Positions 34,218-61,717 of a stretch of DNA of 64,000 nt are shown here, piece after piece. Under the pieces are notes generated by a model. It was not told the origin of the DNA, ran no database searches, and worked only from the letters and a program-made list of their open reading frames with translations. The DNA is taken from NCBI GenBank assembly GCA_963827275.1, contig CAWHAA010000005.1, positions 256,001-320,000 of the forward strand. The letters are read 5' to 3'. The stretch's first letter is position 1. The number at the start of each line of letters is the position of its first letter. Both the position numbers and the translations under genes were made by a program. The DNA comes from an uncultured Spirochaetota bacterium (GTDB lineage: Bacteria > Spirochaetota > UBA4802 > UBA5550).

Positions 34218-34286
34218 TTAATTATTTTATCTTATTGTCAAACGGGAAGAAACACTGATGGTAAGGGATTTATTAATTTTTAGTTT

Positions 34287-35240: not shown

Positions 35241-35262
35241 AGGTCCCTCGATAAAAAACGTC

Positions 35263-38521: not shown

Positions 38522-38558
38522 TTTGGTTGATTGGCATTTAAGGACGAAGGATTGTTAA

Positions 38559-42880: not shown

Positions 42881-43133
42881 GTTCTTCAGAAAGTTCTGAT
42901 ATTCGGTTGTATATATTGAATTTTTCACTTGCCATAGTATAAATCCTATATTAGAATATCCCAAATTGGAATATTTCAATCCACGCAAAAATCGAATAAA
43001 TTATAACAGTTATTATTTGCCGATCCCCTCTCCGGGGGATGACGGATGTGTATTTGTATAATATTTTAATGAAGTTATATAGGAGACGGCCATGAGAGAC
43101 AACTTAAGGGAGTTTATTGGAAGGATTGCCAAA

Positions 43134-44297: not shown

Positions 44298-44336
44298 GAA
44301 TGATTTAGATAAATTATGATAAGGAATATTAATCTT

Positions 44337-44364
44337 GGGGCTGTCAACTATGACAGCCCTTTTT
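44337..44364. terminator. Hairpin between convergent genes
   Basis: GGGCTGTCA-ACTA-TGACAGCCC followed by a T-run. Confidence 0.6.
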
Positions 44365-45415: not shown

Positions 45416-45754
45416 AAAGATGCCTCCTTTTTATAAATGTCATGATAATAGATACTATCATAACAAGTATAATGATACAAAAAATCCATATCTAAGTCAA
45501 TAGTTAGAATTAATAAATTATAATTTATAAGGAGGTGGTCAATCGATTTGGATAGTTGGAAATGAAATTCTCCATTATGGAGTGATATTTATAATGGGGG
45601 ATGAGAAGCAAATTTAATTATTATTGAAGTAAATAATATTTGAAAAGCAAGTCTCAATTATGAATATATGAGTTGGGAGATCATATCTTCCAAGAATAAC
45701 AAGTAAACCGAAATTTTCAAATGAGATGGCATATTATTTGTAGGATAAATAATC

Positions 45755-47497
45755 ATGAATATTGCATATTTAGAGAATCTAGATTTGTTACATGGGGATT
45801 TGTATTATGATGATATCAAATTGGATTTAAAAAGAAACACAATTCGTACATTAAAAAAAGAAGCAAAGTTGGAAACCAAACAAGCAAATGATTTGTATAA
45901 TGCATTGCCAATACAAAAATGGGCAAATAATAAATTATGGGTAAATTATGGAGAAATATACGATAAAGTTGAAGCAGTTATTATTGATAGTAAATTTAAA
46001 TTAAAGTATTTCAAAATAAAGGATCACGAACCACCGACTCTTTCATTGGTTATTGCAGAATATGAGTTCGCTACTTATGTGAACAGTTGTCCTGAAAAAT
46101 ATCCTGATTTTGAATTCCCTTATTTTTCATTAGATGATGATTATAATTATATTAATATTTTCTTAATAATTATATCAACTATTATTGCTCAGCATGTATA
46201 TGCTAAATGGGAATATATTAATAAGAATGCCTGTAATATAGAACTAGAAAACATGTTTATTATTCCTGCATGGGTTAGTTTATTCGCGCAGTTATTCTCG
46301 GGCGTGAGTGGAAAGAAATTCTCTCAATATTTTGAATTAAACAAGTGTGCTATTGATATAAAGGGAGGAATATTTTATTGTGATATCGAATTATACGATC
46401 TTACTGCATCCAGAGAAGCAAAAGGAAATCCAAAATCTGATTTTCGTATATTTGTTGATGAAAGTGACTTAATAAATTATAACTTAATTAAAAAATATAC
46501 TGAATCAACAATAAATGAAAATGAAGCAGATCTTAAAAATAAACAACAATTTGTTAAATTATTAGATAAAGTATTTTCTCCCAAAGGATTATTATGCTTA
46601 TTAAAAATTTTCTTATTTATTGAAAAAAGTGGTCGTCCTAATATAAAAGAGGCAAGCCTCGAGGATATATTTGTTGATATTAAAAAATCTACAATCAAGG
46701 AATATATAGAAATTATTACAGCATTAAGTATTATTAAAATAATGAAAGTGAATAAAAGCAGGGCAATTGGTTTTTTAGAATCTATTGAACTTAAACCGAC
46801 AAGAAGTTTACGTACCTATAGCATTAAAATTCGTTTATCTCGTCTCTATAAAAGATGCGTGGCAGGATATAACTGTTATATCCTGCCAGATGCCATATGC
46901 AATGAAATATTAAAAAATAATAAATTAAAATTCTTTTTACTAATATTCTTTTTGGAACAATGGGTTAAAACAAAACAACCTGAAATTGATTATAAAATTG
47001 ATGAATTAATTAAAATTGCTAAAATTGAAGATTATTCAGCAGGTGAAAGTGGTGGTATTTTTAATGTAAGACAATATGAGTTGCTTCTTGATACCCTTAG
47101 TTACATGAAGAGAAAAGGATTTATTGGAGATTTGCGTGTCTACTTGAATAATAAAGATAATATAATTTCCCTAAGAGATAAACCAAAAAGAAATGCGTGG
47201 AAGGATTATTCAATAACAATTACTTCTCCTGTATGGTTTGTGAAATATGCTATTGGGAATCATCAAGGAGAATATATAATTTTAAAAAAAGCACCTCCAA
47301 TAAAAACAATCACTGCGGCTAATATTAAAAAGTTTCGTGAAGTTGTAGAATGGACTAGTGTAAAACTTGCAAATAAATTAGAAGTTTCGCCTCGTTGGTT
47401 ACGTTTTCTCGAGACAGGACAAAAAAAGATCAGTAAACAAATTGAAGATAAATTACACAAAATACTTCAAGATATAATTAAAGAAAAAGGTTTATAA
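45755..47497 (+). CDS. 580-aa hypothetical protein with C-terminal XRE-type HTH
   Basis: IKKFRE..EWTSVKLANKLEVSPRWL.FLETG..KI. Confidence 0.65.
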   Translation: MNIAYLENLDLLHGDLYYDDIKLDLKRNTIRTLKKEAKLETKQANDLYNALPIQKWANNKLWVNYGEIYDKVEAVIIDSKFKLKYFKIKDHEPPTLSLVIAEYEFATYVNSCPEKYPDFEFPYFSLDDDYNYINIFLIIISTIIAQHVYAKWEYINKNACNIELENMFIIPAWVSLFAQLFSGVSGKKFSQYFELNKCAIDIKGGIFYCDIELYDLTASREAKGNPKSDFRIFVDESDLINYNLIKKYTESTINENEADLKNKQQFVKLLDKVFSPKGLLCLLKIFLFIEKSGRPNIKEASLEDIFVDIKKSTIKEYIEIITALSIIKIMKVNKSRAIGFLESIELKPTRSLRTYSIKIRLSRLYKRCVAGYNCYILPDAICNEILKNNKLKFFLLIFFLEQWVKTKQPEIDYKIDELIKIAKIEDYSAGESGGIFNVRQYELLLDTLSYMKRKGFIGDLRVYLNNKDNIISLRDKPKRNAWKDYSITITSPVWFVKYAIGNHQGEYIILKKAPPIKTITAANIKKFREVVEWTSVKLANKLEVSPRWLRFLETGQKKISKQIEDKLHKILQDIIKEKGL

Positions 47498-47805
47498 TAA
47501 ATCTTTTTCAATTCAATAGACTAAACAAACCAAACCCTCATTTATCATATCCAAATTGTCTTTAGGAACTAAAGACGACCATTCTTGCATTTCAAAGATT
47601 ACCATGATCTATTATGTACTCGCCAATAATGGTCTATTGAAGTATTATGTTTATGACTGAATAAATAACGAGGAGGTGATTAATGTAATTTAAGAATCTG
47701 GAAGATAATAAATGAAGTTGGTGTGTAAAAGATTGTTATGAAACAATAATATCTTTAGAATATTGGTGAGTATATCTCAATTTAAAAATTAATAGGAGAA
47801 AAAAG

Positions 47806-48261
47806 ATGAATATGTATGATTTTATTTTAACTAATGCTCGTTTAGAAGAAAAAATAAACCAAACAAGGCTTAAACTTGAGGAAAGTGCGTCCTCATTGGG
47901 TTCAATGGTTGAATTGTGCAAACCTGTGGTTGATCTTTTCCACAAGAATTTGCCTGACGAAATTAATCCATTAAAAAATACAGATTCAAGAATACCATTT
48001 TCCAAAGCTTTCATAATGGCGCGAATCATTCATTTAATAGGAACAGTAGAATTAAATGATGCTCTTATTGAAAGCATGGAGAATTGTGATGAAACAGAAC
48101 TGTATTATTTTCATTTCATGTGTGAAACTGAAGAAAGAAAAAAAATAATAATAAAGTCACATTTAGATTTTTTCCAAAAACATACGAATAATAATAACGA
48201 AAAAACTAAAAAAACTAAAAAATCAACAGGAGAAAATTATGGAAAAGCAAATATTAATTAA
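47806..48261 (+). CDS. Hypothetical protein
   Basis: RBS AGGAG, 151-aa ORF. Confidence 0.55.
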   Translation: MNMYDFILTNARLEEKINQTRLKLEESASSLGSMVELCKPVVDLFHKNLPDEINPLKNTDSRIPFSKAFIMARIIHLIGTVELNDALIESMENCDETELYYFHFMCETEERKKIIIKSHLDFFQKHTNNNNEKTKKTKKSTGENYGKANIN

Positions 48262-48592
48262 TTATGAAATATTAGGCAAATATCAGGATGAATTAGGGAA
48301 CTTCGAGCCTGATGAATTGGAAAAATTGCTGAATAATTATAAAGCACTTTCAGAGTTTCAGGATGAGCTTGGAATGTATGAAACTGAAGAACTAAAAGAA
48401 GTGGTGAATAATTATATGACTCTTGAGAAACTTCAGGCTGATTTGGGATTGTGGGAGGCAGATGAACTAAAAGAAATGATTGGAGACCTTGATACTCTTG
48501 GCCAACTTCAGGATGATCTGGGAATTTGCGATACGGATGATCTTAAAAAGCATATCTCATTATTAACAGAGCTGAGGGAAATTGAAGCCTGA
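48239..48592 (+). CDS. Acidic protein with four 25-aa tandem repeats
   Basis: L..(Y/F/L)Q(D/A)(E/D)LG..(E/D)..(E/D)L repeated four times; RBS AGGAG. Confidence 0.7.
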   Translation: MEKQILINYEILGKYQDELGNFEPDELEKLLNNYKALSEFQDELGMYETEELKEVVNNYMTLEKLQADLGLWEADELKEMIGDLDTLGQLQDDLGICDTDDLKKHISLLTELREIEA

Positions 48593-48660
48593 TATAATAA
48601 TGAGGATCACAGTACCATAAGGAGATAAACATAATTTAAACAAGGAGAAATGTATCGTTA

Positions 48661-48726
48661 AAGCAACATGGGTATCACCTGTAGTTGATCATGTAAACGA
48701 AATGCGGACGCTCCTACAATGGGAGG
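48661..48726 (+). ncRNA. Candidate structured element, copy 1
   Basis: Homologous to 49445-49514 with preserved pairing. Confidence 0.45.
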
Positions 48727-48806
48727 CTCGCGCTTTGTACAAAATTTAAAAGGTTTCTCTTTGAGGTGGGGGAAAGGTAAAATTTATAATTTCAAGGAGC
48801 TAGGAA

Positions 48807-49151
48807 ATGGACTACGGAACAGAGATTTACAAAGGCACAAAAATTATATGGGATGAAGATCATGATAAGAGAATTTGTATATTTATAGATGATCTTAAAG
48901 AAAAGTATCCAGATGTATCTTTATATTCTTGTTATGAACATAAAGGTTCAATTAAATTAATATTTAATAATTTTATACCATTGGAATATAGAGAAGGTAA
49001 ATTTATTGAAGTAATAGACGGAAAAACTTATATCTCATTAAGTGAAGAATACTTTGAAGACGAATGCTGCGAAGATGACTTTGAAGAGGAATTGTGTGAA
49101 GTAGATGCTCGAGACGAATGGTGTATAGAAGAATCTAAAATAAATAAATAA
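48807..49151 (+). CDS. Acidic hypothetical protein
   Basis: RBS, 114-aa ORF. Confidence 0.55.
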   Translation: MDYGTEIYKGTKIIWDEDHDKRICIFIDDLKEKYPDVSLYSCYEHKGSIKLIFNNFIPLEYREGKFIEVIDGKTYISLSEEYFEDECCEDDFEEELCEVDARDEWCIEESKINK

Positions 49152-49348
49152 TAATATTAGTTTATAATAGCAAAGGGAGTTGTAGCGGTTTTCAGAAAAG
49201 ATTCTGGTTAATGAGAGCAATAATTTATGAATCAATCAGAGCTGTCCTCTGTAAAAGTCATGAGAAGATTGAAGGCCATGTAAACTAATAGTGGTAAGTG
49301 TTAAACGACGAATTATAGGTGGGAAGAAATGAATCGAATATAAAAAAC

Positions 49349-49392
49349 GGCTTCAAATAAATGATAATGTGATAATACATTTATTTGAAGCC
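49349..49392. repeat. Perfect 15-bp inverted repeat with 14-nt loop
   Basis: GGCTTCAAATAAATG ... CATTTATTTGAAGCC. Confidence 0.85.
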
Positions 49393-49444
49393 AATAATTT
49401 CCATTTTAGTCTTATCAAGGAGAAAATTATGAAATAAAGGGCCT

Positions 49445-49514
49445 AAGCAACACAGGCATCACCTGTTGTTGAACATTTAGTTTCGTACTAAATACGGACA
49501 CTCCTGCAAGGGGA
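49445..49514 (+). ncRNA. Candidate structured element, copy 2
   Basis: Three hairpins including CTCCT-GCAA-GGGAG (GNRA loop). Confidence 0.45.
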
Positions 49515-49768
49515 GATAAAGAAAATAAAAAGCAGGAGCGTCCTATGGATGTTATATTTCAGAGAATCATATTCTCTCCTCTCGGCATATTAATCTACAT
49601 CATCAACCGGATGGCGTTAGTGTCATCCTCTTCAATAGTATGGCTGGTTGTTGGCTCTGGCAACCATAACTTCCACTTCTATATGCCTCAAGCTCCTCCT
49701 TTCTATGAGATTATCAATCATAGCTTAGAAGATTTTACTAATAAAAAAAAGGGAATAGGAGTAGTATT

Positions 49769-51847
49769 GTGAAGCATATAGATATTAAACAACTCCAGAA
49801 ACATCTTGTAATAAAAGGGTTGGCTGGAACAAGAAAAACAGCATTATTAATCGCCATAGCTATACAGGCTGTATCTAAGGGAATGAAGGTTCTTTATCTC
49901 ACTTTTAATAAAAAAATACGTTTTGAGGTGATAGAAAGATCAAAATTAAGCAAAACCAAAGTACATACGTTCCACAGTTTTGCCTATAAGGAAATTATTC
50001 AAACGGACTTTCTAAATGATATTTTCAAAGACTTTTCGGTAGATGAACTAACTCAATATTTCGATGAGGATTATAAATATTTCTCATCAAAATCCAGTAA
50101 ACCTAAAGATTTATCCCAAAAGACATTGAGTGAACTTATTAGATGGTGGTGTGACTATTGTGAAAATAGTACTCAAACCAAGTATGATTTAATTATAGTA
50201 GATGAGTTTCAAGATTTGAATCCCAGTATGTTTAGGATGTTGAAAAAACTCTATATGATTAATAAGAAAAATGATGTTAAGATAATAGTAGCCGGAGATC
50301 CTTACCAAACGATATATCACTATCTGAATGGTTCAGATTCATCTGAGAATTACTTCAATACTTTTGGTAAATATTTTGGTGAATTTGAGACAATACATTT
50401 AGATCAATGTTATAGATGTTCTCCTGCAATACAGAGATTTGTTAATGGGTTCTACAGAAAACAATATATAAATTACAGGCAATTTGATTTAAATGGATAT
50501 CAAACCTCTGATTATTCGGAAGATGTATTTATTCATTTAATTCAGCACAGAAGATTAGTTAATGAAAAAGTATCTGAGATATGTAATCAATATCAGGGCA
50601 TAAAAATTAAAATTCTGGCACGTGTAAATAGAGAATTATCTCCATTTTCTGATTTAATTGCCAAGAATGATCTAATACAAACTTCTACTATTCACTCTGA
50701 AAAGGGCAATGAATGTGATGTTGTAATAATAGTTAATACCATATTTAATGATAAAATATCCTCTGAGGAAGACAAAAATCTGTGGAATGTAGCCATTACC
50801 AGAGGAAAGAAAACGGTGCATATTGTTTCCTCTTTTCCCAGCGAGAAGATATTGGATTTATTTGAAGCAGGAACTTATACTTTAATTTCCGAACAACATG
50901 ATCTATCTAATTCTACCATGGAAGACATTCCCCAAGAAACAATAAATTTAACTCCAGACAAGGTTAGAGAGTCATTGATTGATTCTGTGGAAGTCCAATT
51001 GGATTATGAGGATGCTCCATTTATTCCATATGAACAGCAGAATCTTAAAAAGAAATCTCGTTATATGACCAATACAAGGATCAAAGGTAAAAATATTGAT
51101 CTTGTACTTAATCAGGTCAAAGGAAAATTAAATTTCGAATATCTTGATTTAAACCAGTTGAAAAACCAAGGTTTTACTGATATACAAATTGTATCTTATA
51201 TTCTTGAGACCCAGAAAGAATACTTCAATTACAAGATTTCTGATGAAGAATTACTTTCACAAAAATTAAGAAGATTAGATCTGGCTAAATATTATGAGGT
51301 CTCTGGAACAGAAATATTGGATTATTTATCAATGGTATTAAAATTATCTAAATATTCTGACTCAGATAAAAAGACAAATTATTGTGGAGAGGAAGTTAAA
51401 ACAATTTATTTAAATTCTTCAAAGGCAAAAGAAAGAGGAATTAGGATTTATTTCCCCAAGTACAAAACTATTAATTCTTTAAATACTGATAAAAATATTA
51501 TTAAAGTTGAACTTTACAGAATTAGGAAATTGGGGATTAAAAAATTAGGATTATCAATTAAGAATGTTGGAGATTTATTAAGGTTTATAGATAATAATGA
51601 ATTAGAAAAACTTTATGATGAATGGATGAAATATGAATTTACATCTTTAACTGGTAAAGAAGTAAAGAATATTGAATTATTGAAGAAAAGAAGAAATATT
51701 TCAAGTTTGGAAGATTTAAGAGATTTAATTGATAGAGGTAATATTAAAATTAAAGATAAAAGAATTTATTATCATATTCTATTATCATTTATAAATGAAA
51801 GAGAAAGGAGGGAGATAGAGGAAATAGTTGGAAGTAAAAAAAGGTAA
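49769..51847 (+). CDS. SF1 (UvrD/Rep-like) helicase fused to a C-terminal domain resembling rolling-circle initiators
   Basis: GLAGTRKT, TFHSF, VDEFQD, GDPYQTIY, YRCS, TIH..KG.E, NVAITR; C-terminal LIDSV / RRLDLA / TIYLNS..IRIY / IKVEL. Confidence 0.75.
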   Translation: MKHIDIKQLQKHLVIKGLAGTRKTALLIAIAIQAVSKGMKVLYLTFNKKIRFEVIERSKLSKTKVHTFHSFAYKEIIQTDFLNDIFKDFSVDELTQYFDEDYKYFSSKSSKPKDLSQKTLSELIRWWCDYCENSTQTKYDLIIVDEFQDLNPSMFRMLKKLYMINKKNDVKIIVAGDPYQTIYHYLNGSDSSENYFNTFGKYFGEFETIHLDQCYRCSPAIQRFVNGFYRKQYINYRQFDLNGYQTSDYSEDVFIHLIQHRRLVNEKVSEICNQYQGIKIKILARVNRELSPFSDLIAKNDLIQTSTIHSEKGNECDVVIIVNTIFNDKISSEEDKNLWNVAITRGKKTVHIVSSFPSEKILDLFEAGTYTLISEQHDLSNSTMEDIPQETINLTPDKVRESLIDSVEVQLDYEDAPFIPYEQQNLKKKSRYMTNTRIKGKNIDLVLNQVKGKLNFEYLDLNQLKNQGFTDIQIVSYILETQKEYFNYKISDEELLSQKLRRLDLAKYYEVSGTEILDYLSMVLKLSKYSDSDKKTNYCGEEVKTIYLNSSKAKERGIRIYFPKYKTINSLNTDKNIIKVELYRIRKLGIKKLGLSIKNVGDLLRFIDNNELEKLYDEWMKYEFTSLTGKEVKNIELLKKRRNISSLEDLRDLIDRGNIKIKDKRIYYHILLSFINERERREIEEIVGSKKR

Positions 51848-52507
51848 TAAATATATATTATATTATAGGGGTGTTTTTTTATAAGATAAATGGACAAAAC
51901 ATGAATATTGTATAGTTTCGAATTTTAGATATGGAATCAAAATATGACAGGAGTAAGCATGGTTCAGGCGGTGTTAAAAAAACCCTGATTTGGTTCAATT
52001 ATTAGTAATAACTATACAATTGTTTGGTATTTATTTTAAAAATGTATTTAAGCAAGAGAGCCTGAGGAGGGTATAAATATTATGACCTGCTCGGTGCCGC
52101 TCTCAATAAGTTTGCAATTTATTTCGGAGAGAGGATGCCAGTGTGATCACTGCCATTTGCATAGAGATTCTGGCACCCTCTCATTGTACTCTCTCCAGAA
52201 CTCTTTAATAAAATATTCTACAGTTGATCCAGCCATTCAAAGATCATGAATGACAACATTCCTATTTTAAACCAGCTGAGGGTTGTCCAGCAGTCCCTTT
52301 TCCTTCATTCTGTGAATTACAAGCAAACCCTGAAATAATGCATAATAAGATAAATGATACAGCTATAATCTTTTTCATCCCTAACACCCCCTCCGTATTT
52401 GTAATAATTGGATTATCTCTTACAGTGTAATAATATTTATAGAGCCCTGCCGGTGTGCCATACCTACTTCAGATATAATAACTTGGCTCCCAAACAACAC
52501 GATTACC

Positions 52508-52581
52508 AAATTTTAAGCCTCTGTCCAGTACTTTTTGTGCGGGGGGCTTAATCTAAGAGGAAGTAATTGCTGAAAAAATGC
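52508..52581 (-). repeat. ~75-bp repeat, inverted relative to 54977-55053
   Basis: Direct alignment of the reverse complement. Confidence 0.85.
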
Positions 52582-53035
52582 ATTCATTAACATGGGCCTT
52601 TACTTCTGAGGATGTAATTTCCTAAAAAGTTAAACTATCACGTGGCACAAATTTGGGGGTGGGATCACTTTAATAAACTTAATTGGTTCTCTATACATAT
52701 TCTGGATATTACAAATTTATTCATGCTTGATTGCGAACCAATTCATCATACAAGTCTATACACTAAATTTTCCCGTTGGTTATATTGTCATGTGCAGATA
52801 TTTCTTGACATTAGTCTTCTAATATTATGTATTATAAATAAGAAATTCCATCTGGGTGGGATGTGACTATTATAATTAACATATATCTATTATCTATGAA
52901 TGCATGAGAAGCTCTGATCTGGTTTTAATTCGAGTAGCACAAAGTATTTATTCCTTAGAAATGTATCTGCCTACACTCATATATTGGCATACATAAAAAG
53001 GCTGAACAATCACAATCAAAAGGAGACCAAATAAT

Positions 53036-53821
53036 TTGAAATATTTATTATTATGTTTATTACCTGTTTTTATGATTTCTGCCTGCTCAATAAAACCATA
53101 TTTAAAAGAAACCGATCTTCCCAATGGGATTAAATTATATTCAGCAGATAAACAATTCGTTGTCCATCCAGATTGTTATTGGAAACTTAGACCAGTAGTA
53201 GAAATTGGTCGTGAGTCAATTGATTATAATTATCTCAAACAATTAGATGCTGGATATAAGAATATTAGTTTAAACGTAATTGGAGAACTTGTTGATAAAC
53301 AGAATAAATTCTTTGTGGTTAATTGGCAACCCCATGGTTATTTTTTTATACTAGAAGATGATTATATATTTGTTAATAAATTTATAAAATATTTGATCCC
53401 TCTAGATTATGGTAATGACTCATATCATCCATCTGCATACGAGAACCAATTGTTTCCATATTATAAAGAATCGGGTAGAAATCTCAATATTATTTTAGAC
53501 GTTAATCTTTCAAGATCACTATTATATAACAATATACCTATTTCAAATATTAGATACTCACAAATTAATAATAAAATAATTCAACTTGCAGGGTATAATG
53601 GATTTGCAAACGAATTTTTAAACTTCACTGCATGCCCTCTTTTTGCACAATTCTCTAAAGGCGAATCATTATTATCAATTCATTCTTTAGCTGTTGAAAC
53701 AATTGGGGAAAAACCTTATACAAATCAACATGGACTGATGTTTATGGGTGTGCAATATCAGACAAAATTTATTATTGTTTGGCGGAACGGAGCATTTTAC
53801 GCTTTGCCATGTATTAAATAA
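53036..53821 (+). CDS. Lipoprotein, hypothetical
   Basis: Lipobox ISAC, RBS AGGAG. Confidence 0.65.
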   Translation: MKYLLLCLLPVFMISACSIKPYLKETDLPNGIKLYSADKQFVVHPDCYWKLRPVVEIGRESIDYNYLKQLDAGYKNISLNVIGELVDKQNKFFVVNWQPHGYFFILEDDYIFVNKFIKYLIPLDYGNDSYHPSAYENQLFPYYKESGRNLNIILDVNLSRSLLYNNIPISNIRYSQINNKIIQLAGYNGFANEFLNFTACPLFAQFSKGESLLSIHSLAVETIGEKPYTNQHGLMFMGVQYQTKFIIVWRNGAFYALPCIK

Positions 53822-53995
53822 TTTACTAACTTTATATTTTAAATAATTTGATGGTTGTTGATTTCTTTTATACATTCAATTCCAAACATCTATTGAATTT
53901 TGTGGTTATTATTTAAATCGTCAGATCGAGGACTTTTCTATTATCTAAAAGTGCGAAAGATATTGTACACTACCGAAGCAAACCCCTCTCAAGTG

Positions 53996-54034
53996 AAGCC
54001 TCCTCCAGCAGAAAAAGCGCTGGACAGAGGCTTA
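53996..54034 (+). repeat. Internal 39-bp palindromic core copy of the 52.5/55.0-kb repeat
   Basis: AAGCCTCCTCCAGCAGAAAAAGCGCTGGACAGAGGCTTA. Confidence 0.8.
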
Positions 54035-54114
54035 TTTTCATAATTCATCTTGACATTGTTATCTTATTTTGTTTAAAAATATTAAAAATAATTTTATAGA
54101 GGGCTAGCAGTAAA

Positions 54115-54898
54115 ATGAAAAAAATAGTTTTCATTTTTGTTTCAACTATTCTATTATGGGGATGTGCAACAAGTGGTTATGTACAATTTTATAAACCATA
54201 TATTAATCCAAAAGATAATCCTGATTATGAGCAATTAAAATATGGTGAACGACCTATAATCTATAAATCCAATGCTCTGATAAAAGATGTAAATTTTCTT
54301 CTTTCAAAAGGTTATGCTGTTATTGGTGAATCAAATTTCAATGGAGTATATGAAAATATTCAAAATGCGATAGATCAGGCAAGGGATGTAGGAGCAACCT
54401 GTGTTATAGTAAAAGCAAATTATTCTGTATACGCAAACACGGTCTTGGACAGAAGCCGTTCCAGATTTTAGTACAACATACCATTCAGGGAATATTTCTA
54501 CTGGGCGTTCAAATGCTTATTATAATGGCAGAAGTACCACATATGGCACAAAATACGTAGAACAAACCGCACGTGTTGATCGTTATGATCAAAATGCAGT
54601 TTATCTAGTTAAATCAAATAAAAAACTCAGAATCGGTATATATTTTAAGGATTTAACTCCAGAAAAACGTCTAGAAATTGGAAGAAATACAGGGGTATCG
54701 GTTAATGCTGTTGTGGAAAATTCACCTGCATTTCTTGCAAATGTTATGTCAGAGGATGTAATAACAGCAGTAGATTGGAAACCAGTAAATAATTGTGAAG
54801 AATTGAATAAAATTTTAGACCAACTAAAATCAGGAGTAACATTTACACTAATTCGAAATAAACAAACGAAAAATATTTTTATTAAATTTAATCAGTAG
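54115..54898 (+). pseudogene. PDZ-domain lipoprotein, frameshifted
   Basis: Lipobox WGC; VENSPA..A....DVI.AVD...V PDZ motif; broken frames near 54430-54480. Confidence 0.65.
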
Positions 54899-54976
54899 CT
54901 GAAACAACTTACTGATTTTTATATTTTACTTTCTAGGAATCTGCCCACTCATCGGTGCCGGCCGAGGGGACACAAA

Positions 54977-55053
54977 GCATTTTATCAGCAATTACTTCCT
55001 CTTAAATTAAGCCCCCTCCGGCAGAAAAAGCGCTGAACAGAGGCTTAAAATTT
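54977..55053 (+). repeat. ~75-bp repeat, inverted relative to 52508-52581
   Basis: Direct alignment; overlaps the stop codon of the Lgt-like gene. Confidence 0.85.
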
Positions 55054-55782
55054 TTTCAACAATACCCATTTATTTGCTTTATTAAAAATAATTGTCATAA
55101 TACAAGTTAATATGATTATTAAAGATATTTCTTGTGATGGTGAATAAAAGTCAGTGAAAAGACGTCCTCTATTATCACCTCTTTTAAATTCAATAAAAAA
55201 CCTAAATACAGAGTAGCATAATAAATATATAATTAATCTATTTTTTTTAATAAATTTCTGAAAAATAAGTGTTAATGTTAAAAGAAATATTATTTCAATC
55301 TCTCTTATTGGAAAACGAACAAATAATACAGATAAAACAGTAGTGTTACATATATTACCATAACAGCAACCACCGAGTAGGCATCCTATACGACCAATTG
55401 AATGAAATAAAGTAATTGAAGGAACTATTTCATTTATATATATGTATGTATTATATCCAGATAATTCAAGAATTATATAAAAAGTAATGATAAAAACAAT
55501 TAAGCCAAAATAAAATGTATACCCAGCATATATTATTTTTTGAAAAATATTAAATTTATCAAATTCTGAATAAATATACCAGTTTCCAATATTAGAGAAA
55601 GCTATTCCAACAAGAAACGATAATCCAATATAAATAATAGTATCTTCTTTTCGATATTTAGAATCTCCAATATTTTTAGAATTATAGAAATATAAAATTG
55701 ATGACGCTATCAAACCTATAGCAACCATAATATTAAATATTGGAATATTACCAAAATAAATTAATGGATGTAGTTCAATCAT
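55045..55782 (-). CDS. Prolipoprotein diacylglyceryl transferase (Lgt)-family protein
   Basis: IGRIGC...GCCYG, Y..FRFFIEF.RGD, SQ.IS; multi-TM. Confidence 0.8.
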   Translation of the reverse strand: MIELHPLIYFGNIPIFNIMVAIGLIASSILYFYNSKNIGDSKYRKEDTIIYIGLSFLVGIAFSNIGNWYIYSEFDKFNIFQKIIYAGYTFYFGLIVFIITFYIILELSGYNTYIYINEIVPSITLFHSIGRIGCLLGGCCYGNICNTTVLSVLFVRFPIREIEIIFLLTLTLIFQKFIKKNRLIIYLLCYSVFRFFIEFKRGDNRGRLFTDFYSPSQEISLIIILTCIMTIIFNKANKWVLLKKF

Positions 55783-55792
55783 TTTAAAATCA

Positions 55793-55822
55793 TCCACGGG
55801 TGGAATTTATTCCACCCGTGGA
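55793..55822. terminator. Perfect palindrome/hairpin between the DUF4064-like and Lgt-like genes
   Basis: TCCACGGGTGGAAT-TT-ATTCCACCCGTGGA. Confidence 0.6.
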
Positions 55823-55839
55823 ACATCTCAAAAATATCA

Positions 55840-56217
55840 TTAGGCCTGCACTTCTTCTTTTTTTTGTGCAAAAGCTATAATTCCACCAATTAAAAATAGA
55901 ACTAAAGCTATTAATGAAAAGAAATTAAAAGTAACAAGGGTAATTCCAGATAATAAAGCTGCCACTAATAAACCCACTCCTGCAATGACTGGATTTCTTT
56001 TCCCAAAAAGACAACATACAAATCCAATTAATGCTGAAATTAAACCTATTGCCATAAATGTATTGCCGGTTTCTTGAACGGCAGCTCCGCTATTACCTGA
56101 AATTGAATCAAGACCAACCGCACAAGCACCTGCACACAAAGCTCCCGGAAGTTGCATTACAGCACCAATGACACCCATGATCATTGGAACCATTGAAGTA
56201 CCTCTTTTCTTTGCCAT
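55840..56217 (-). CDS. Small 4-TM membrane protein (DUF4064-like)
   Basis: Gly-rich TM helices; RBS AGGAG. Confidence 0.6.
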   Translation of the reverse strand: MAKKRGTSMVPMIMGVIGAVMQLPGALCAGACAVGLDSISGNSGAAVQETGNTFMAIGLISALIGFVCCLFGKRNPVIAGVGLLVAALLSGITLVTFNFFSLIALVLFLIGGIIAFAQKKEEVQA

Positions 56218-56267
56218 TAAGAATCTCCTTTTAAAAATATAATTACAGGCTTTATTTTAATTGAAAG

Positions 56268-56981
56268 TTATTTATCTTTTTTCTTAACTGAAATAAATTT
56301 TAATGTAAAAACTGGATCATCTACAAAACCTTCCTCCATTAAGCTTTGCTCATTAAATCCTCTTTTTGAATCAGAAATGAAAGCCGCAGTAAATAGAACA
56401 TTATCTCCTTTATTTAGTTTTTCAACGTCTTTATATACTGATGAATTAAGAGGTATCATGCTATATGTTAGCATATCACTAAGCTCATTATTCCATGTTG
56501 CATAAGTTATTTCTTTATCATCAAATTCACTTTCAATTTTTATATAAAGTTTTTGCCCACCTTCGTTAGTCCCAATGTCTGTTAGTTGACCTTCCCAATT
56601 CACCACCCTTCCATTACCAAGATAACTTCTTAGAAATGAAACCATTTCACGATATACTGCTGATTTTTTTAATTCATTATCTTGCTCGGCATACTTTATT
56701 TTAAATTCTTTAAGTTTAGCATGAAATTTAATCTGATCTGGTTTTCCAATTTCCTTTGGTTCTGTATTTTCAGATGTTATTTTATCATCTGAATTACCTG
56801 AGGTACTAGATGATTCATTTTCACCAATATTTGCAATAATTCCAATTAAAATAATTGTAACGATAATATTGAGAAAATATGATAATCCTTTCTTCACATC
56901 TGTCGATTTGTAGATCAAATAAAAACCATAAAAAGGTATAAGATACTTCCAATTAAAACCTTTTGTTTCCTGATCTGTCAT
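56268..56981 (-). CDS. Membrane-anchored hypothetical protein
   Basis: N-terminal TM segments, Ser-rich linker, possible OB-fold C-domain; RBS AGGAGG. Confidence 0.6.
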   Translation of the reverse strand: MTDQETKGFNWKYLIPFYGFYLIYKSTDVKKGLSYFLNIIVTIILIGIIANIGENESSSTSGNSDDKITSENTEPKEIGKPDQIKFHAKLKEFKIKYAEQDNELKKSAVYREMVSFLRSYLGNGRVVNWEGQLTDIGTNEGGQKLYIKIESEFDDKEITYATWNNELSDMLTYSMIPLNSSVYKDVEKLNKGDNVLFTAAFISDSKRGFNEQSLMEEGFVDDPVFTLKFISVKKKDK

Positions 56982-57475
56982 TTGAGCCTCCTTGTAATAT
57001 TAATATTTGCCATTTATAAAAATCATACCTATTTAAATACAGTACTTCAACGTACGAATGGTTATCTGTTTCAATTTGCTATATCATAAAGTTACTGGCT
57101 CCTGTTAGAGCTCTGGAAACGGGAGGAGGTATATTACTTCCTGATGTTGCCCACTTTATCTGATTTATTTTAACAGAAAATTTTATAATCGGACTTAGAC
57201 CAATGTTTTTTCCGGATCCATACTTTCTCGGGATCGGCCAATTGCATTCTTTCACATCCCCCGGATGGAATTATTATTAAAATTTGTATGTATTATTCAG
57301 ACTATTGTCAAGTAATTTATAACAATATTTTCCATTGAAGATGGGAACGTTGAATAATTTCCTTCTAGAATATAATCTGTTAATCTTGAATATCTAGGTT
57401 GTTATGATTGCCTCACGAGCTTGATACTGTGTTGCAAGAATCGGGTGATGACCTATTCAGTTTCTGTGGCCTTAA

Positions 57476-57724
57476 TTACTGTATGGTGACGTCACCCTGA
57501 GTTAAACGAATTATCTCTTTTTGAACATTAGCTTTTAAATCATCACTACTTTTTTTTAGATTCTTGATTGTGATATAATAAGCCAACAATCGCTCAATTG
57601 GGATAGACCAATCTGCAAAATCGTTTATATCCTTGATAAAAGACTCATATAGCTTTATCCTCTTTTCTTTAAAGCTTGAAAACAATGCCAAGATCTCAAT
57701 ATTTGAAAAAGCTTTTTCTTCCAT
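57476..57724 (-). CDS. Hypothetical protein
   Basis: RBS GGAGG, 82 aa. Confidence 0.55.
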   Translation of the reverse strand: MEEKAFSNIEILALFSSFKEKRIKLYESFIKDINDFADWSIPIERLLAYYITIKNLKKSSDDLKANVQKEIIRLTQGDVTIQ

Positions 57725-57820
57725 AAATAACCTCCATGATTAACTACTATAGGTGTATACGAATGAGAAGTCAAAATGACATAAAATATTTTTAAAAATT
57801 AAATTATTTTAAGAATAAAT

Positions 57821-58545
57821 TTACTTTTTGTTTATGGCAATTAAATCCCATAGCCTTTTAGCTATTTCTTGTCCTAGTGCTTCAATCGATTTCTTCGACA
57901 TATCGACCGTCATTTCTCCTACTGATTCATCTGGTTCTTGACCGTTATCTGCTTTCATCAGTTGATCAATAATAGAAAAGTTATCATCAGAGAAATCAAT
58001 CCTGATGGTGTCGGGGAGGGCATTAAATGCTTCTAATATCTTGGAGTTGTTGTATTTGTTACATACTCTTGCTGGTAGAGCCATGTCTTCCCTGTAGTGC
58101 TTCATGTAAACATCTCGTTTCAATAAAAGATAATTAGGTGTACTTTTTTCAATAACATCGTCGTGATTATAAAAAGCCCATCTTCCTGTATTGTAAAATG
58201 CTTGGGGTCTTTTGGTATTATTCCAATACACTCCAATTGAAACTCATAGTCATAGAGGATCGTACAAATGCCGTTGCACTTATCTCTGTTCTCACATACA
58301 ACTATGGATATAAATTTATTGATATCGACAACCGATTCACCATCAATCTCCAATAATGTTCCTCTTAAATTATAGACCAGCTTAATTATTCTTAAAAATG
58401 ACCTGTTGCATTCATAAGCTAAAATGGATATGGCGTTTCCTGTTTCCGTATATGTTTTTGGAAAATTTATCTTTGCTAACTGGATAGCCTCAGGAAGCTT
58501 TACGGACTTACTTTTTGAATTGAATGTTAATCTATATGTAATCAT
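57821..58545 (-). CDS. Hypothetical protein, probably one frameshifted gene (58120-58545 + 57821-58231)
   Basis: Overlapping same-strand ORFs; RBS only before 58545. Confidence 0.45.
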
Positions 58546-58577
58546 AGGAATCTCCTTAAAATAATAGTCGTGAATAT

Positions 58578-59216
58578 TTATTGCTTAGCCCATCGATTCA
58601 CTTTTCTTTGGTTCTGATAAATACAGGAACCCCATGAAATATAACCGGACATCTTATTTAGCTTGTCGTGATTTGATCTGTATACCAGAAGCCAGTATTC
58701 CTCATCATCAACAGATGTTTCTCTATTCTTGCCTTGATTGAATTTTTTTCTGGCATTTGCAATAAGATGACCCCAGCCATAATTAGCTCTTCTTTCATTT
58801 TTATAACTCATTGGAATCCTTTTTGTTATATCCACCGCCTGTTCAATAGCCTTGAATTTCCATACCAAACAGGGGAAAATATCCCGAGAGAAATCATCGA
58901 GATTAACCTTCTCACAATTGGAATATTCACAAATACCCCAAAGATATACGGGGTCATAACGCTTATGTAATTTCATTATCTGGTAAGCAATTAATGCATC
59001 CCACTCGCCATTACTTTCGCCAGTATCTGGATGATCATTGAAACGATATCTTATCTTATTGATAGCCCGATTACAGCATTTAACCCACGTATACATTCCT
59101 ACAGGGTCAAAGGTTTCATTATGGCCGTAGTTATAATCTCTTTTCCTATTTCTAATTCGATCCAATAGATTCCGTATCCACCAAGGTGAGAACTCAGAGA
59201 CTTTCATTGTATTCAT
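58578..59216 (-). CDS. Transposase-operon accessory protein C (unknown, Trp/Arg-rich)
   Basis: ATGA overlap with the upstream ORF at 59213-59216; RBS GGAGG. Confidence 0.65.
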   Translation of the reverse strand: MNTMKVSEFSPWWIRNLLDRIRNRKRDYNYGHNETFDPVGMYTWVKCCNRAINKIRYRFNDHPDTGESNGEWDALIAYQIMKLHKRYDPVYLWGICEYSNCEKVNLDDFSRDIFPCLVWKFKAIEQAVDITKRIPMSYKNERRANYGWGHLIANARKKFNQGKNRETSVDDEEYWLLVYRSNHDKLNKMSGYISWGSCIYQNQRKVNRWAKQ

Positions 59217-59509
59217 TTCTTTAACCTCCGTAATGAGTATCCTTGCACCTTCCCACGTTGCTCGATGATTGTTGCACATAATTCAATTATTTCATGCTCA
59301 CTCAAATGACGGCATAGATACTTCAGGTCTTTATCTACGAGATAAAAGTTATCAAGAGTGAAGCGGTTAGCCTTTTTATGCGGATCTCGCAACTCCACTT
59401 CGCAATTCAATGGGGTTAATTCTCTACTTGTCAAAGCACAGCACCTCCCTTGTTGTTCTAATAATTGCCAGAAATGTTCAGCGGTGAATTTAAAGGCTTC
59501 ATCTGTCAT
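59213..59509 (-). CDS. Transposase-operon accessory protein B, degenerate HNH-like
   Basis: L..QQGRCCALT...L pattern and DNFYLV; start overlaps the transposase 3' end. Confidence 0.6.
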   Translation of the reverse strand: MTDEAFKFTAEHFWQLLEQQGRCCALTSRELTPLNCEVELRDPHKKANRFTLDNFYLVDKDLKYLCRHLSEHEIIELCATIIEQRGKVQGYSLRRLKK

Positions 59510-61238
59510 ACCCTTTCTCCTTTATTATTTTTTTCCGTTTATCTTTTGACATACCATATTTTGGTTGTCTGGGTTTCTTGGGTGCTTCTACTTGTTTTAT
59601 AAACTTGGTGATATCTGATAGTTCAGATAGTTCGTTCTTGTCGTAGGTGTAGAGGATATCGGGCAAAATCGGAATAAGCCTTTTCAGTTGATAATTAACA
59701 TCCCCCTTACCTTTCTTATTAACTTCCACGACATCTGCAATACCAAGCATTGCCCATATACGAACCACTCGAAGTGCTTTCTTTTTATTTATAGTTCCAG
59801 CATTGCATACGGTATTTAACGAGCGATGTTCACGATCAGCCAGAAATGAAAATAATCTGTGGGCTAAAGAATTGTATTCAGACTCACTCTGTCTTCTTTC
59901 TCTATTTTCCTCATCCCAATAGAACAGGTAATCCTCAACCGCCTGTTTGAGGGGATAATATTCATTCCGGTCTAATATGAATTTTAATCTTTTGGGGATT
60001 TGTTTTCTGGTCTTACTGAAGATCCCATGAACACGATTATCAGGTGTTGGAAGGTTATAAAGACATTCATTGATTTTTGCTTTTAAAGACCATTTTTCAG
60101 TTTTATCTGGTGACTTGTCCGTGCATATAGCTCTCTCACTATCCCCACACAGCTCCCCTACCCTCATCTCAACCAACCGATCCATCCCAAACAACCTCAA
60201 CCCCTTCAAGGCACACCACTCATCCAGATACAGTTGAGAATACTCTGGCCTGATATACCCATACCCAGCCAGAAAGGAATGCTTCAATACACGTTGGAAC
60301 CCTTCTGCCGTCTGACTATGGACTCCCTTACAGCTCCATCTCTCTCTACTCCAGACATTCCTCTTCAAATCCTTTGCCCGTTTCGAGTGGTTTACTGACC
60401 GATGATTGTCATTATATCGCTTCAACCACGGATAACCGGCATCAGAAAATATCGGAGCATGCTCAGGCAAGAAATCCAGTAAGGGCATAATCGTTCTTTG
60501 TCTTTGATCAGGAATAGAATCAAATATGACTGGCCCTTTCTTTATCCCAATCGTGGAAACCAATGTCCCGATCTGGTACTTACCCTTCTCCAGAGCCACA
60601 GAATCGGACAGGTAGATGCTGGAGGTCTGGCCGTTGTGCTTGTACCGTGCTCTGTAGCCATTAGAGCCTTTTCTAGCTGAAAACAGGGCAACTGTATCCA
60701 TTGATACTACCGGTTTGCTCTGGATTAATCCTGAGAGGTCTGAAGCGGTATCCTTGGGGAATCTAAAGCCTTCTGGGAACTCCTTCTGGATCTCCTCTGT
60801 CATGATCTGTTTAATAACGGGGATAAACTCCCTCAGGAATAACTGTAACCGCCTCTTGAGTAAGGTGGCGGTGTTGTTGGAACATTGGAGTCTTCTTTGT
60901 ATACTTGAGGCTGTCAGGACTTGAGGATGGATGTTGAGAGCTTCTGTTAGGATATATGAGAATGTCCAGAGCGGAAGTCTGAGATTGTGCAATGGGGTTT
61001 GGGAAGTACGTGATCCTTGGTAATAGCACTGGGGACAACGGATTGCATTTTCTCTGGTCGCTATTTCATTAGTAAGTCTTGTTTGGCAATGGGGACAGTA
61101 CTTGGGATAAGTGGAGTTAAGGATCTGTTTGGTTAGTTGGGTGTAATATTGGATGTTGATCTGGGGGAATCTTGTTGAGAATTGGGTCTTGGCATTTTGG
61201 TGAAAATGTATAGGTTGTGGGGAGTGTGAAGGAGAGAT
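59499..61238 (-). CDS. IS1595-like DDE transposase, core + 209-aa C-terminal extension, lacking start/RBS
   Basis: Frame open from the element end (ISPSH...YPKYCPHC...DDE...) to the stop at 59499; upstream antisense comM supplies no start before a stop. Confidence 0.87.
   Translation of the reverse strand: MSPSHSPQPIHFHQNAKTQFSTRFPQINIQYYTQLTKQILNSTYPKYCPHCQTRLTNEIATRENAIRCPQCYYQGSRTSQTPLHNLRLPLWTFSYILTEALNIHPQVLTASSIQRRLQCSNNTATLLKRRLQLFLREFIPVIKQIMTEEIQKEFPEGFRFPKDTASDLSGLIQSKPVVSMDTVALFSARKGSNGYRARYKHNGQTSSIYLSDSVALEKGKYQIGTLVSTIGIKKGPVIFDSIPDQRQRTIMPLLDFLPEHAPIFSDAGYPWLKRYNDNHRSVNHSKRAKDLKRNVWSRERWSCKGVHSQTAEGFQRVLKHSFLAGYGYIRPEYSQLYLDEWCALKGLRLFGMDRLVEMRVGELCGDSERAICTDKSPDKTEKWSLKAKINECLYNLPTPDNRVHGIFSKTRKQIPKRLKFILDRNEYYPLKQAVEDYLFYWDEENRERRQSESEYNSLAHRLFSFLADREHRSLNTVCNAGTINKKKALRVVRIWAMLGIADVVEVNKKGKGDVNYQLKRLIPILPDILYTYDKNELSELSDITKFIKQVEAPKKPRQPKYGMSKDKRKKIIKEKGYDR
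60127..61238. repeat. Right terminal direct repeat (1112 bp)
   Basis: Copy of 32979-34091. Confidence 0.93.
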
Positions 61239-61717
61239 GCCGGTGCGGCTACCTCTTCGACAAGGAGATCCCCTGCGTGTGCCCGCCGTACCAGGTCAAG
61301 GGCCATTTCCAGAAGATATCGGGCCCGATACTCGACCGGATCGACATCGAGGTGCTGGTCGGACGCGTACCATACCATGACCTGATGTCCGGCGGGTCGT
61401 ATGAAGGTTCGGCGGCCATCAAGGAACGGGTCATGGCCGCCCGCGAGATACAGGAACAGCGCTTCAAGGCAAGCCCGACCAGGTACAACGCGCGCATGAC
61501 CCAGGAGGAGATCAAGAAGCACTGCCGGTTCACGCCGGAAGCCGAGGAGGTGCTTGCCCTTGCCGTGAAGCGGACAAATCTCACCGCCCGCTCTTTTTTC
61601 AAGATCCTGAAAACCTGTCGCACCATTGCGGACCTGGGCGGAGCGGAAATGATCCAGAAGGGGCACATTCTTGAGGCGCTCTCATATAAGAATTTGCAGA
61701 GAAATTACGATGTATGA
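61239..61717 (+). pseudogene. comM: comM 3' fragment (begins with right TSD)
   Basis: CGYLFD..PCVC, KISGPILDRID, RTIADL, EALSY. Confidence 0.95.

What the first reader, a model, noticed from the sequence alone, without database searches (positions are those of the whole stretch)
58578..59509. Two translationally coupled accessory genes behind the transposase, cut off from their promoter in the integrated state
Seen: the 98-aa ORF starts at 59509, overlapping the transposase end. The next ORF starts by ATGA overlap at 59216. The only visible RBS/start/promoter for this operon is ~25 kb away at 34163-34217. The 98-aa protein resembles HNH-fold proteins (QQGRCCALT...DNFYLV) but lacks obvious catalytic His/Asn. 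Inference: these are target-selection or regulatory subunits expressed only from the circle, functionally analogous to TniQ/TnsD-type helpers.
Basis: inference. Interest (0 to 1): 0.8.

Follow-up and report, generated by a model that had tools for sequence, protein, structure and literature searches.

The report
Target-selector genes of site-specific spirochaete transposons
Two small genes, one a nuclease-fold protein missing its cutting residues and one an unknown protein built of repeated helices, sit behind the transposase in a family of large spirochaete mobile elements that each land at one fixed spot in a host gene, and they likely tell the transposase where to insert.

Summary
Both genes are real. 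They are the second and third genes of a conserved operon behind an IS1595-like transposase (ORF98 in 54 of 55 full-length loci, ORF212 in 50).

The 28-kb element in comM is bounded by 1.1-kb direct repeats and an 8-bp target duplication. The repeat is the middle of the transposase gene: promoter and start lie outside one copy, and the C-terminal domain plus both genes lie outside the other. Relatives in Leptospirae share this layout. This fits replicative integration of a circle. Solo repeats and one circle-form record exist.

Each lineage uses one exact site: comM, radC, ssb, uvrD, tRNA 3' ends or stop codons.

ORF98 has an HNH fold without catalytic residues. ORF212 is basic, hypervariable and built of seven Trp-led helical repeats. 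Where target and transposase ancestry disagree, the accessory genes follow the target and the catalytic core does not.

Best reading (0.6): a new protein-guided target-selection module. 'Only from the circle' is plausible here but not general, because both genes have their own ribosome sites. Not found in ten literature searches.

The parts
59213..59509 (-). ORF98: HNH (beta-beta-alpha-Me) fold protein lacking the catalytic His and the metal-binding Asn/His; own SD site; predicted adaptor
58578..59216 (-). ORF212: basic, hypervariable protein of seven W-x9-K-L helical repeats (W44, 72, 93, 119, 148, 175, 195); own SD site; predicted target reader
59499..61238 (-). IS1595-like transposase frame without its start: Zn ribbon, DDE core (D181, D266, E312 invariant in 25 aligned), then a C-terminal domain with weak winged-helix similarity that lies outside the repeat (59499-60126)
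60127..61238 (.). Right long direct repeat (1,112 bp) = internal part of the transposase gene, with imperfect inverted ends
32979..34091 (.). Left long direct repeat (1,113 bp; one extra base near 33962 shifts the frame; real or a sequencing error is not known)
34092..34217 (-). Promoter-like site (34217-34188), SD and ATG (34163) with the first 24 codons of the transposase, outside the left repeat
32971..32978 (+). 8-bp target site duplication, left copy, in the comM NPCxC codons
61239..61246 (+). 8-bp target site duplication, right copy
31938..32978 (+). comM 5' part (interrupted target gene)
   Evidence: ChlI, Mg_chelatase
61239..61717 (+). comM 3' part
   Evidence: Mg_chelatase_C
34092..58577 (.). 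Low-GC cargo (interior 32% G+C against 56-58% in the host flanks): Vsr/EcoRII-like/Dcm cluster, split RT-nitrilase, IS3, split integrase, UvrD-like helicase and others

Best explanation
ORF98 and ORF212 are the conserved second and third genes behind the transposase of a family of site-specific spirochaete mobile elements bounded by 1.0-1.3-kb direct repeats, and they likely form its target-selection module, with ORF212 predicted to read the host target DNA through its basic helical repeats and the nuclease-dead ORF98 predicted to couple it to the transposase. Inferred cycle: (1) On a circle that carries one repeat, the promoter, start, DDE core, C-terminal domain, ORF98 and ORF212 form one intact operon. 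(2) The complex finds a fixed site in a conserved host gene. (3) The transposase acts on the inverted ends of the 1.1-kb repeat, which lie inside its own gene, and integrates replicatively. This gives a cointegrate: 8-bp duplication, repeat, rest of circle, repeat, duplication. (4) This parts the promoter from the targeting genes. (5) Recombination between the repeats would restore the circle and leave a solo repeat in the target. Shown: the anatomy, the conservation, the fixed sites, the solo repeats, the folds and the co-variation with target. Inferred: DNA binding, protein contacts, the replicative chemistry, the resolution route and the expression switch.
For: 1. Linkage. ORF98 follows the C-terminal domain in 54 of 55 loci and ORF212 in 50 of 55; 46 of 54 transposase/ORF98 junctions overlap. 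None of 71 core-only loci (redundant, some cut by contig ends) has either gene. 28 of 30 ORF212 hits have both partners upstream.
2. Fixed sites. The same comM codon is used in both orientations (window, L043/L044, L021, L017), and the same uvrD motif in L038/L039, L040, L107 and L078. Others: ssb (L015), radC (L018), tRNA-Leu/Arg/Tyr 3' ends, and the stop codons of MBOAT, SpoIIE-domain, flgG-like, DUF1577 and amidase genes.
3. Tracking of the target. The nearest neighbour by identity has the same target in 28 of 36 cases for the core, 33 for the C-terminal domain, 31 for ORF98 and 34 for ORF212. L052 (flgG site) is 91-92% identical in core and 52-54% in C-terminal domain to DUF1577-site elements, but its ORF212 is 22-27% to them and 34-44% to flgG-site elements. 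AU tests reject the same-target clade for the core in 3 of 3 cases (p 2e-6, 0.001, 0.019) and for the C-terminal domain in 1 of 3 (p 0.003). They reject it for ORF98 in 0 of 2 and for ORF212 in 0 of 3. Our own core is closer to other-target elements (55-58%) than to the second comM element (47%), while ORF98 (66 vs 43-53%) and ORF212 (42 vs 22-27%) side with comM.
4. ORF98 is a confident HNH fold (pLDDT 92.5). Top Foldseek hits are Cas9 HNH domains, probability 0.99-1.0, E about 0.01; the first 12 VIA rows are HNH-family nucleases, Z 5.4-7.0. The metal-binding Asn/His is absent in 43 of 43 and the catalytic His in 26 of 43.
5. ORF212 has internal repeats (profile self-match 93-95%, E 5e-8; 20 of 20 column shuffles at most 0.6%), pI above 9 in 140 of 140, and 126 clusters at 50% identity.
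6. Cycle. 19 repeat pairs in relatives, 15 at 99.8% or more. An in-frame ATG lies upstream of 23 of 25 partner copies against 2 of 15 full copies. Promoter-like z above 2 in 7 of 32 partner flanks against 0 of 27 host flanks. A solo repeat sits in comM of a one-contig genome without ORF98. Record KF114878.1 joins end to start in frame as promoter, start, one repeat, C-terminal domain, ORF98, ORF212.
Against: - No binding or transposition was measured.
- L064 sits at the flgG site with an ORF212 only 19-21% identical to other flgG-site ones, and L040's nearest ORF212 by identity is not the other uvrD element.
- Over all 861 pairs ORF212 is the weakest predictor (AUC 0.90; core 0.92, C-terminal domain 0.94, ORF98 0.97), because same-target MBOAT elements have very divergent ORF212s.
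- For ORF212 the rival, core-like grouping is rejected in only 1 of 3 tests (p 0.010; 0.078; 0.36). The groups were chosen after seeing trees and the simpler model was used, so the p-values are optimistic.
- The elements are relatives, not independent, and only three discordant cases carry the argument.
- ORF212 was not detected in 5 of 55 loci: two tRNA-Tyr elements, one further element, one at a contig end and one broken.
- Several target labels rest on the 8-bp duplication alone.
- KF114878.1 and some solos could be collapsed-repeat assembly products.
- The left repeat here is frameshifted, so this copy may be inactive.
Confidence: 0.6

Rival explanations
1. The transposase's own C-terminal winged-helix-like domain reads the target, and ORF98/ORF212 are general assembly cofactors that co-vary only because they are inherited with it outside the repeat.
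For: The domain has weak but consistent winged-helix matches (best E 0.0012; MarR_2 E 1e-4 in 1 of 6). It predicts target in 33 of 36 nearest-neighbour cases and follows the target in the tRNA-Leu and comM cases.
Against: It stays with the core in L052 (same-target clade rejected, p 0.003) and L038 (65% to a different-target element, 52% to the same-target one). It is 73-77% identical between the SpoIIE-site elements L031-L033 and elements with other targets, where ORF212 falls to 40-51%.
Confidence: 0.15
2. ORF98 is the specificity or strand-processing subunit (a non-cutting HNH DNA binder, or in His-bearing clades a nickase for cointegrate processing), and ORF212 is a scaffold.
For: ORF98 has the best all-pairs AUC (0.97). 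Its same-target clades were not rejected. It is the most regularly present gene (54 of 55), and 17 of 43 members keep the His.
Against: It is small and slower-evolving. L052's ORF98 is 63-68% identical to both target classes. No member keeps the metal-binding residue.
Confidence: 0.12
3. The two genes regulate or maintain the element (transcription control, direction of excision, circle stability) and have no part in choosing the site.
For: Both sit in the half of the operon that changes promoter context on integration. They are translationally coupled. Fast divergence of ORF212 could reflect relaxed constraint.
Against: It leaves base-exact, lineage-specific targeting without a dedicated reader, and does not predict that ORF212 divergence jumps at target switches.
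Confidence: 0.08
4. Targeting is RNA-guided, with ORF98 a relic of an IscB/Cas9-type HNH and ORF212 an RNA-binding protein.
For: ORF98's best fold and profile matches include Cas9 and IscB HNH domains.
Against: Those matches are generic HNH. No guide-like match to the target flanks exceeded chance in 13 of 14 tests, including nearly the whole interior of this element and the whole interior of KF114878.1. No Rfam family was found in 10 loci.
Confidence: 0.03

Closest known systems
Tn7-like target selectors, especially TnsF of Tn6022 and Tsy (Faure et al. 2023, PMC10293859; passages read)
   Same: A DDE transposon co-opts an operon-linked accessory protein, derived from an inactivated DNA enzyme (there a tyrosine recombinase), to insert in comM. 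Selectors are modular.
   Different: No TniQ/TnsD, TnsC or TnsF homology in the three-gene unit. The transposase is IS1595-like, the dead enzyme is an HNH, the duplication is 8 bp, and the element is bounded by 1.1-kb repeats that split its own gene.
IS6/IS26 cointegrates, pseudo-compound transposons and translocatable units (PMC7986276; passages read)
   Same: Replicative fusion gives two directly repeated copies plus a target duplication. RecA resolution restores the donor circle and leaves one copy. Arrays form.
   Different: There the repeat is a complete, autonomous IS. Here it lacks the start and the C-terminal 35% of the transposase, the 'donor' completes the gene, and insertion is base-exact in conserved host genes.
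IS1595 family, including MTnSag1/tISCpe8 and ISApl4-Tn7560 (PMC5704250, PMC12561309; passages read)
   Same: Related DDE core, 8-bp duplication, about 25-bp inverted ends, circular intermediates reported.
   Different: Those elements hold a whole transposase gene between their ends. MTnSag1 and tISCpe8 have low site specificity (AT-rich regions). The passages read mention no accessory targeting genes.
HNH (beta-beta-alpha-Me) nuclease domains
   Same: ORF98 has the fold and the invariant structural Asn.
   Different: The metal-binding residue is lost in all members, the catalytic His in this clade, and three of four zinc cysteines (motif positions from the alignment and from recall).
Helical-repeat nucleic-acid readers (TALE, PUF, PPR; recalled, no call) and LTR/solo-LTR architecture (recalled, analogy only)
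   Same: ORF212 is a basic array of variable helical repeats. The element has long direct repeats and leaves solo copies.
   Different: No homology shown. The repeats are single irregular helices 20-29 residues apart. There is no reverse transcriptase in the conserved unit.

Membership tests
IS1595 family IS | IS1595-type DDE domain with D, D, E triad | tested here: met
   Pfam DDE_Tnp_IS1595 32.7 bits, cut-off 27; D181, D266, E312 invariant in 25
IS1595 family IS | NCBIfam IS1595 transposase model above cut-off | tested here: not met
   22 and 38 bits against 75; no hit in 2 of the 4 transposases scanned
IS1595 family IS | 8-bp target duplication and about 25-bp terminal inverted repeats | tested here: met
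IS1595 family IS | Complete transposase gene enclosed by the two ends | tested here: not met
   The frame crosses both ends; start and C-terminal domain lie outside
Tn7-like transposons | TnsC ATPase and TniQ/TnsD/TnsF in the core operon | tested here: not met
   The conserved unit is three genes; no such Pfam or NCBIfam match for ORF98 or ORF212
Tn7-like transposons | Insertion at a fixed site in or behind conserved genes (works-like test) | tested here: met
Tn7-like transposons | Accessory protein required for and binding to the site | not testable with these tools
   Only co-variation shown
IS6/IS26-type cointegrate elements | Two directly repeated copies with outer target duplication; solo copy after resolution | tested here: met
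IS6/IS26-type cointegrate elements | Repeat is an autonomous IS6-family IS | tested here: not met
   IS1595-like core; the repeat lacks start and C-terminus
IS6/IS26-type cointegrate elements | Replicative chemistry and RecA-dependent resolution | not testable with these tools
   Inferred from end products only
HNH endonucleases (ORF98) | beta-beta-alpha-Me fold | tested here: met
   16 of 43 members hit HNH_5 at E up to 0.1
HNH endonucleases (ORF98) | Catalytic His plus metal-binding Asn/His | tested here: not met
   Leu40 in place of His; no Asn/His at positions 63-66 in 43 of 43
Helical-repeat DNA/RNA readers (ORF212) | Tandem internal repeats, basic | tested here: met
Helical-repeat DNA/RNA readers (ORF212) | Fold shared with a known repeat reader | tested here: inconclusive
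   Model has pTM 0.48
Helical-repeat DNA/RNA readers (ORF212) | Repeat-to-base code | not tested
   The recognised motifs are not yet delimited

The most novel reading that the evidence does not exclude
ORF212 is a new class of compact modular DNA reader. Each Trp-led helix recognises a few bases, and exchange or mutation of repeats retargets a bacterial DDE transposase to new genes. It belongs to an LTR-like element class whose transposon ends lie inside its own transposase gene, so that integration switches it from a targeting integrase to a truncated core.
Probability: 0.3. Interest if true: 0.95.

Novelty: categorically new. Interest (0 to 1): 0.82.

Why it matters
Dedicated target selectors are known mainly from Tn7-like elements. 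This would be an independent invention in the IS1595 lineage, using about 310 residues of accessory protein to place 10-100-kb circles at single-base precision in more than a dozen different sites. Natural target switches among close relatives make the specificity code directly testable by gene swaps. The architecture (transposon ends inside the transposase gene, promoter parted from the targeting genes on integration, solo scars and arrays) matches no family I tested. It accounts for many unannotated 1.1-1.3-kb repeats and cargo islands in Leptospirae: the transposase was found in 63 of 75 genomes of the family that named hits identify as Leptospira. Some lineages interrupt DNA uptake and repair genes (comM, radC, ssb, uvrD); others insert at stop codons or tRNA ends and leave the gene intact.

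Tried and rejected
**Complex prediction.** ORF98 with ORF212 and the C-terminal domain gave no verdict: median 0.31 against the mark 0.32; runs 0.25, 0.31, 0.48; three controls 0.00. Not used as evidence.

**ORF212 fold and family searches found nothing usable.**
- Foldseek PDB best E 6.5, BFVD best E 0.74, VIA best Z 4.9 on generic helices. The model's global fold is uncertain, so this does not show a new fold.
- Atlas best 0.84, below the usable range; none for the C-terminal domain.
- No Pfam family in more than 1 of 34 members. PDB sequence search best E 0.018. One unnamed PHROG in 25 of 140 members. No similarity to the C-terminal domain.

**Expression.** No RNA holder listed; no evidence either way.

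**RNA guide.** Chance-level in 13 of 14 flank tests; one 15-nt match beat 30 shuffles by one base. Rfam 0 in 10 loci.

**Internal promoter.** No family-wide excess upstream of ORF98. A first scan of partner flanks that left out the last 40 nt also showed none (mean z -0.14); including them gave mean z 0.77. The signal is therefore modest and depends on the window.

**Range.** The metagenome scan with ORF98 gave 3 weak loci that I did not use. The viral scan gave none. Cluster look-ups named only Leptospira, in 2 of 20. The range outside Spirochaetota is not settled: all 67 of 68 loci were titled as spirochaetes or unnamed 'bacterium'/metagenome records, but the patterns came from spirochaete sequences.

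**Reads.** In one search the contigs over the right junction have only 24 bases on the element side, so they do not count as bridging.

**Earlier scan notes.** Nothing relevant.

**Rows dropped.** 7 of 49 labelled elements lacked one part and were left out. L045, L147, L151 and L074 were left unlabelled because their junctions are unresolved.

**Literature.** Ten searches found no description. The library lacks most subscription papers, and supplements were not opened. Bourhy 2007 (excising L. interrogans island) and Siguier 2009 (IS1595) were seen only as reference titles, so overlap with them is untested.

Full report
**1. Observation.** ORF98 (59213-59509) and ORF212 (58578-59216) are on the minus strand behind a transposase frame (59499-61238), overlapping by 11 and 4 nt. 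Both have homologues: 14 proteins at 65-89% and 7 at 41-95%. In a related strain, 21 of the 30 listed differences inside ORF212 fall on third codon positions (my count, which shows 40 of 304 rows). Each gene has its own ribosome site. The weak site at 59552-59524 is at chance level.

**2. The element.** 32979-34091 and 60127-61238 are direct repeats differing by one base. Outside them are the halves of comM and an 8-bp duplication. The repeat is the internal part of the transposase gene: zinc ribbon and DDE core. Its ends are imperfect inverted repeats, consensus AT-n10-CAnTCCnCACA over 30 ends. The first 24 codons lie outside the left copy; the last 209 codons, ORF98 and ORF212 lie outside the right copy. 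Contigs of related strains suggest the same layout: a stand-alone 1,112-bp contig equal to the repeat, a low-depth left junction in a second study, and an uninterrupted comM site.

**3. The family.** The transposase matched 78 of 401 phylum genomes, including 63 of 75 in one family, which named hits show to be Leptospira. I fetched 60 stretches and 68 loci from the genome collection. Nineteen full/truncated pairs have 1,037-1,293-bp repeats, 15 at 99.8% or more; more pairs are. An in-frame ATG lies upstream of 23 of 25 truncated partners but of 2 of 15 full copies. Promoter-like sites are modestly enriched upstream of partners: z above 2 in 7 of 32 against 0 of 27 host flanks, rank test p 3e-4, kin not independent. 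ORF98 follows the C-terminal domain in 54 of 55 loci and ORF212 in 50. Neither follows a core-only copy (0 of 71). In reverse, 28 of 30 ORF212 hits have both partners upstream.

**4. Life cycle.** Duplication, repeat, cargo, repeat, duplication is the product expected of replicative fusion of a circle, as described for IS6 elements, where RecA resolves it to the donor plus one copy (PMC7986276, passages). Solo repeats flanked by the duplication occur in comM, radC, ssb, uvrD and other sites, and in arrays of several non-identical copies. One is in a single-contig genome in which ORF98 was not found. GenBank KF114878.1, filed as a Leptospira phage but with no structural phage gene among 34 annotations, joins end to start in frame. 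It reads TTGACG-16-TATAGT, ATG, one repeat, C-terminal domain, ORF98, ORF212, and its repeat is identical over 1,280 bp to the solo in L015. That is the predicted circle, though a collapsed assembly would look the same. In the integrated state the native promoter faces a truncated gene with the whole DDE core; what that product does is unknown. In this window a one-base shift near 33962 cuts it to 80 residues.

**5. Targets.** Each lineage uses one base-exact site. Sites inside genes: comM (NPCxC codons, both orientations), uvrD (VGDD motif), ssb, radC. Sites at stop codons: MBOAT, SpoIIE-domain, flgG-like, DUF1577, amidase and methyltransferase genes. Sites at tRNA 3' ends: Leu, Arg, Tyr. The IS1595 elements MTnSag1 and tISCpe8 have low specificity (PMC5704250, passages), so something here supplies it.

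**6. Which part follows the target.** Among 42 elements with all four parts and a target label (7 of 49 dropped), the nearest neighbour shares the target in 28, 33, 31 and 34 of 36 testable cases for core, C-terminal domain, ORF98 and ORF212. Three discordant cases were tested. The core rejects the same-target clade each time. The C-terminal domain rejects it for flgG (p 0.003), is borderline for uvrD (0.084) and supports it for tRNA-Leu. ORF98 (2 tests) and ORF212 (3 tests) never reject it.

Against this: L064 holds the flgG site with an unrelated module; ORF212 has the lowest all-pairs AUC (0.90 against 0.97 for ORF98); the core-like grouping is rejected for ORF212 in only 1 of 3 tests; and the groups were named after seeing the trees. 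The data place specificity outside the repeat with fair confidence, in the accessory genes with moderate confidence, and in ORF212 rather than ORF98 only tentatively.

**7. The proteins.** ORF98 folds confidently as an HNH domain. Asn54 is invariant, the catalytic His survives in 17 of 43 members but is Leu here, and no member has the metal-binding Asn/His. It is therefore predicted not to cut. An inactivated DNA enzyme serving in targeting has a precedent in TnsF, which directs Tn6022 to comM (PMC10293859, passages). ORF212 is predicted as eight helices with an uncertain overall shape (pLDDT 82, pTM 0.48). Seven begin at a conserved Trp (88% of residues over the seven columns) with Lys/Arg at +10 and a hydrophobic residue at +11. 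The self-similarity is significant against shuffled columns. All 140 aligned members are basic, and the family spans 126 clusters, none longer than 247 residues. DNA binding is inferred from charge, repeat structure and co-variation, not shown.

**8. Expression.** For this window, silence in the integrated state is plausible: the operon is antisense to comM, and a terminator-like site faces it at 61772-61755. In at least 12 relatives a co-oriented host gene ends at the junction, so read-through is possible there. I put 'only from the circle' at about even odds.

**9. Comparison and novelty.** It works like a Tn7-type selector module on an IS6-type cointegrate cycle with an IS1595-type enzyme, but fails a defining test of each family. 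Ten searches of the held library found no account of it. Papers seen: passages of PMC10293859, PMC12561309, PMC4758666, PMC5704250 and PMC7986276; all others as listings only; no supplements opened. HNH motif positions, TALE/PUF/PPR and LTR comparisons are recalled.

**10. Verdict.** Best explanation 0.6, interest 0.82.

Noticed in passing
L166 (KF114878.1), ends 46398-47417 and 1-1800: A 47.4-kb record filed as a Leptospira phage has no annotated phage structural genes and is the circle form of one of these elements; its ORF98 homologue (about 920-1200) is unannotated.
   Followed up: partly
window 34092-34095 and 60123-60126; many relatives: Both inner junctions of the repeat usually read AT|AT: the circle DNA just outside the transposon ends is conserved, unlike the host side.
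   Followed up: no
L105, L123, L134, L145, L055: Arrays of up to five non-identical repeats separated only by the 8-bp duplication record repeated insertion and loss at one site; several 17-40-kb elements stand in tandem in two long-read genomes.
   Followed up: partly
L101, L108, L114; L104, L125; L118, L121: Elements sit at the stop codons of different MBOAT paralogues within one genome, all ending in an F-x-Y-F-x-F motif, which points to the recognised sequence.
   Followed up: partly
window 52508-52584, 53985-54034, 54977-55053: A roughly 50-130-bp repeat lies between single cargo genes and recurs many times elsewhere in the genome (C5, C8, C10); possibly attC-like cassette boundaries.
   Followed up: no
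window 38559-41356: Reverse transcriptase plus nitrilase-like region split into four frames (RVT_1 and CN_hydrolase), resembling a defence RT-nitrilase fusion (recalled). The integrase at 44509-45415 is split too, so frameshifts may be decay or read errors.
   Followed up: no
window 34287-37389: NOV_C-domain protein, Vsr, EcoRII-C-type endonuclease and C5 methylase cluster at the left end of the cargo.
   Followed up: no
window 45755-47497 and 49769-51847: A 580-aa protein with no Pfam match and a UvrD-like helicase with an unexplained C-terminal half; possible replication functions of the circle.
   Followed up: no
window 57476-57724 and L043:1750-1995: An 82-aa ORF downstream of ORF212 looks similar by eye to an 81-aa ORF behind ORF212 in the other comM element; not aligned.
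   Followed up: no
L075, L076: The closest transposase cores (67%) are solo repeats in two histidine-kinase genes of a same-genus genome, with the same 8-bp duplication; no ORF98 was found there.
   Followed up: partly
L049, L139: The two tRNA-Tyr-targeting elements have ORF98 but no detectable ORF212; they may use another third gene.
   Followed up: no
L053:2349-3021: ORF98 and ORF212 homologues carry a long KR / EN dinucleotide-type expansion in their overlap, and ORF212 is split.
   Followed up: no
window 41756-42768: IS3-family element with three further near-identical copies in the genome.
   Followed up: no
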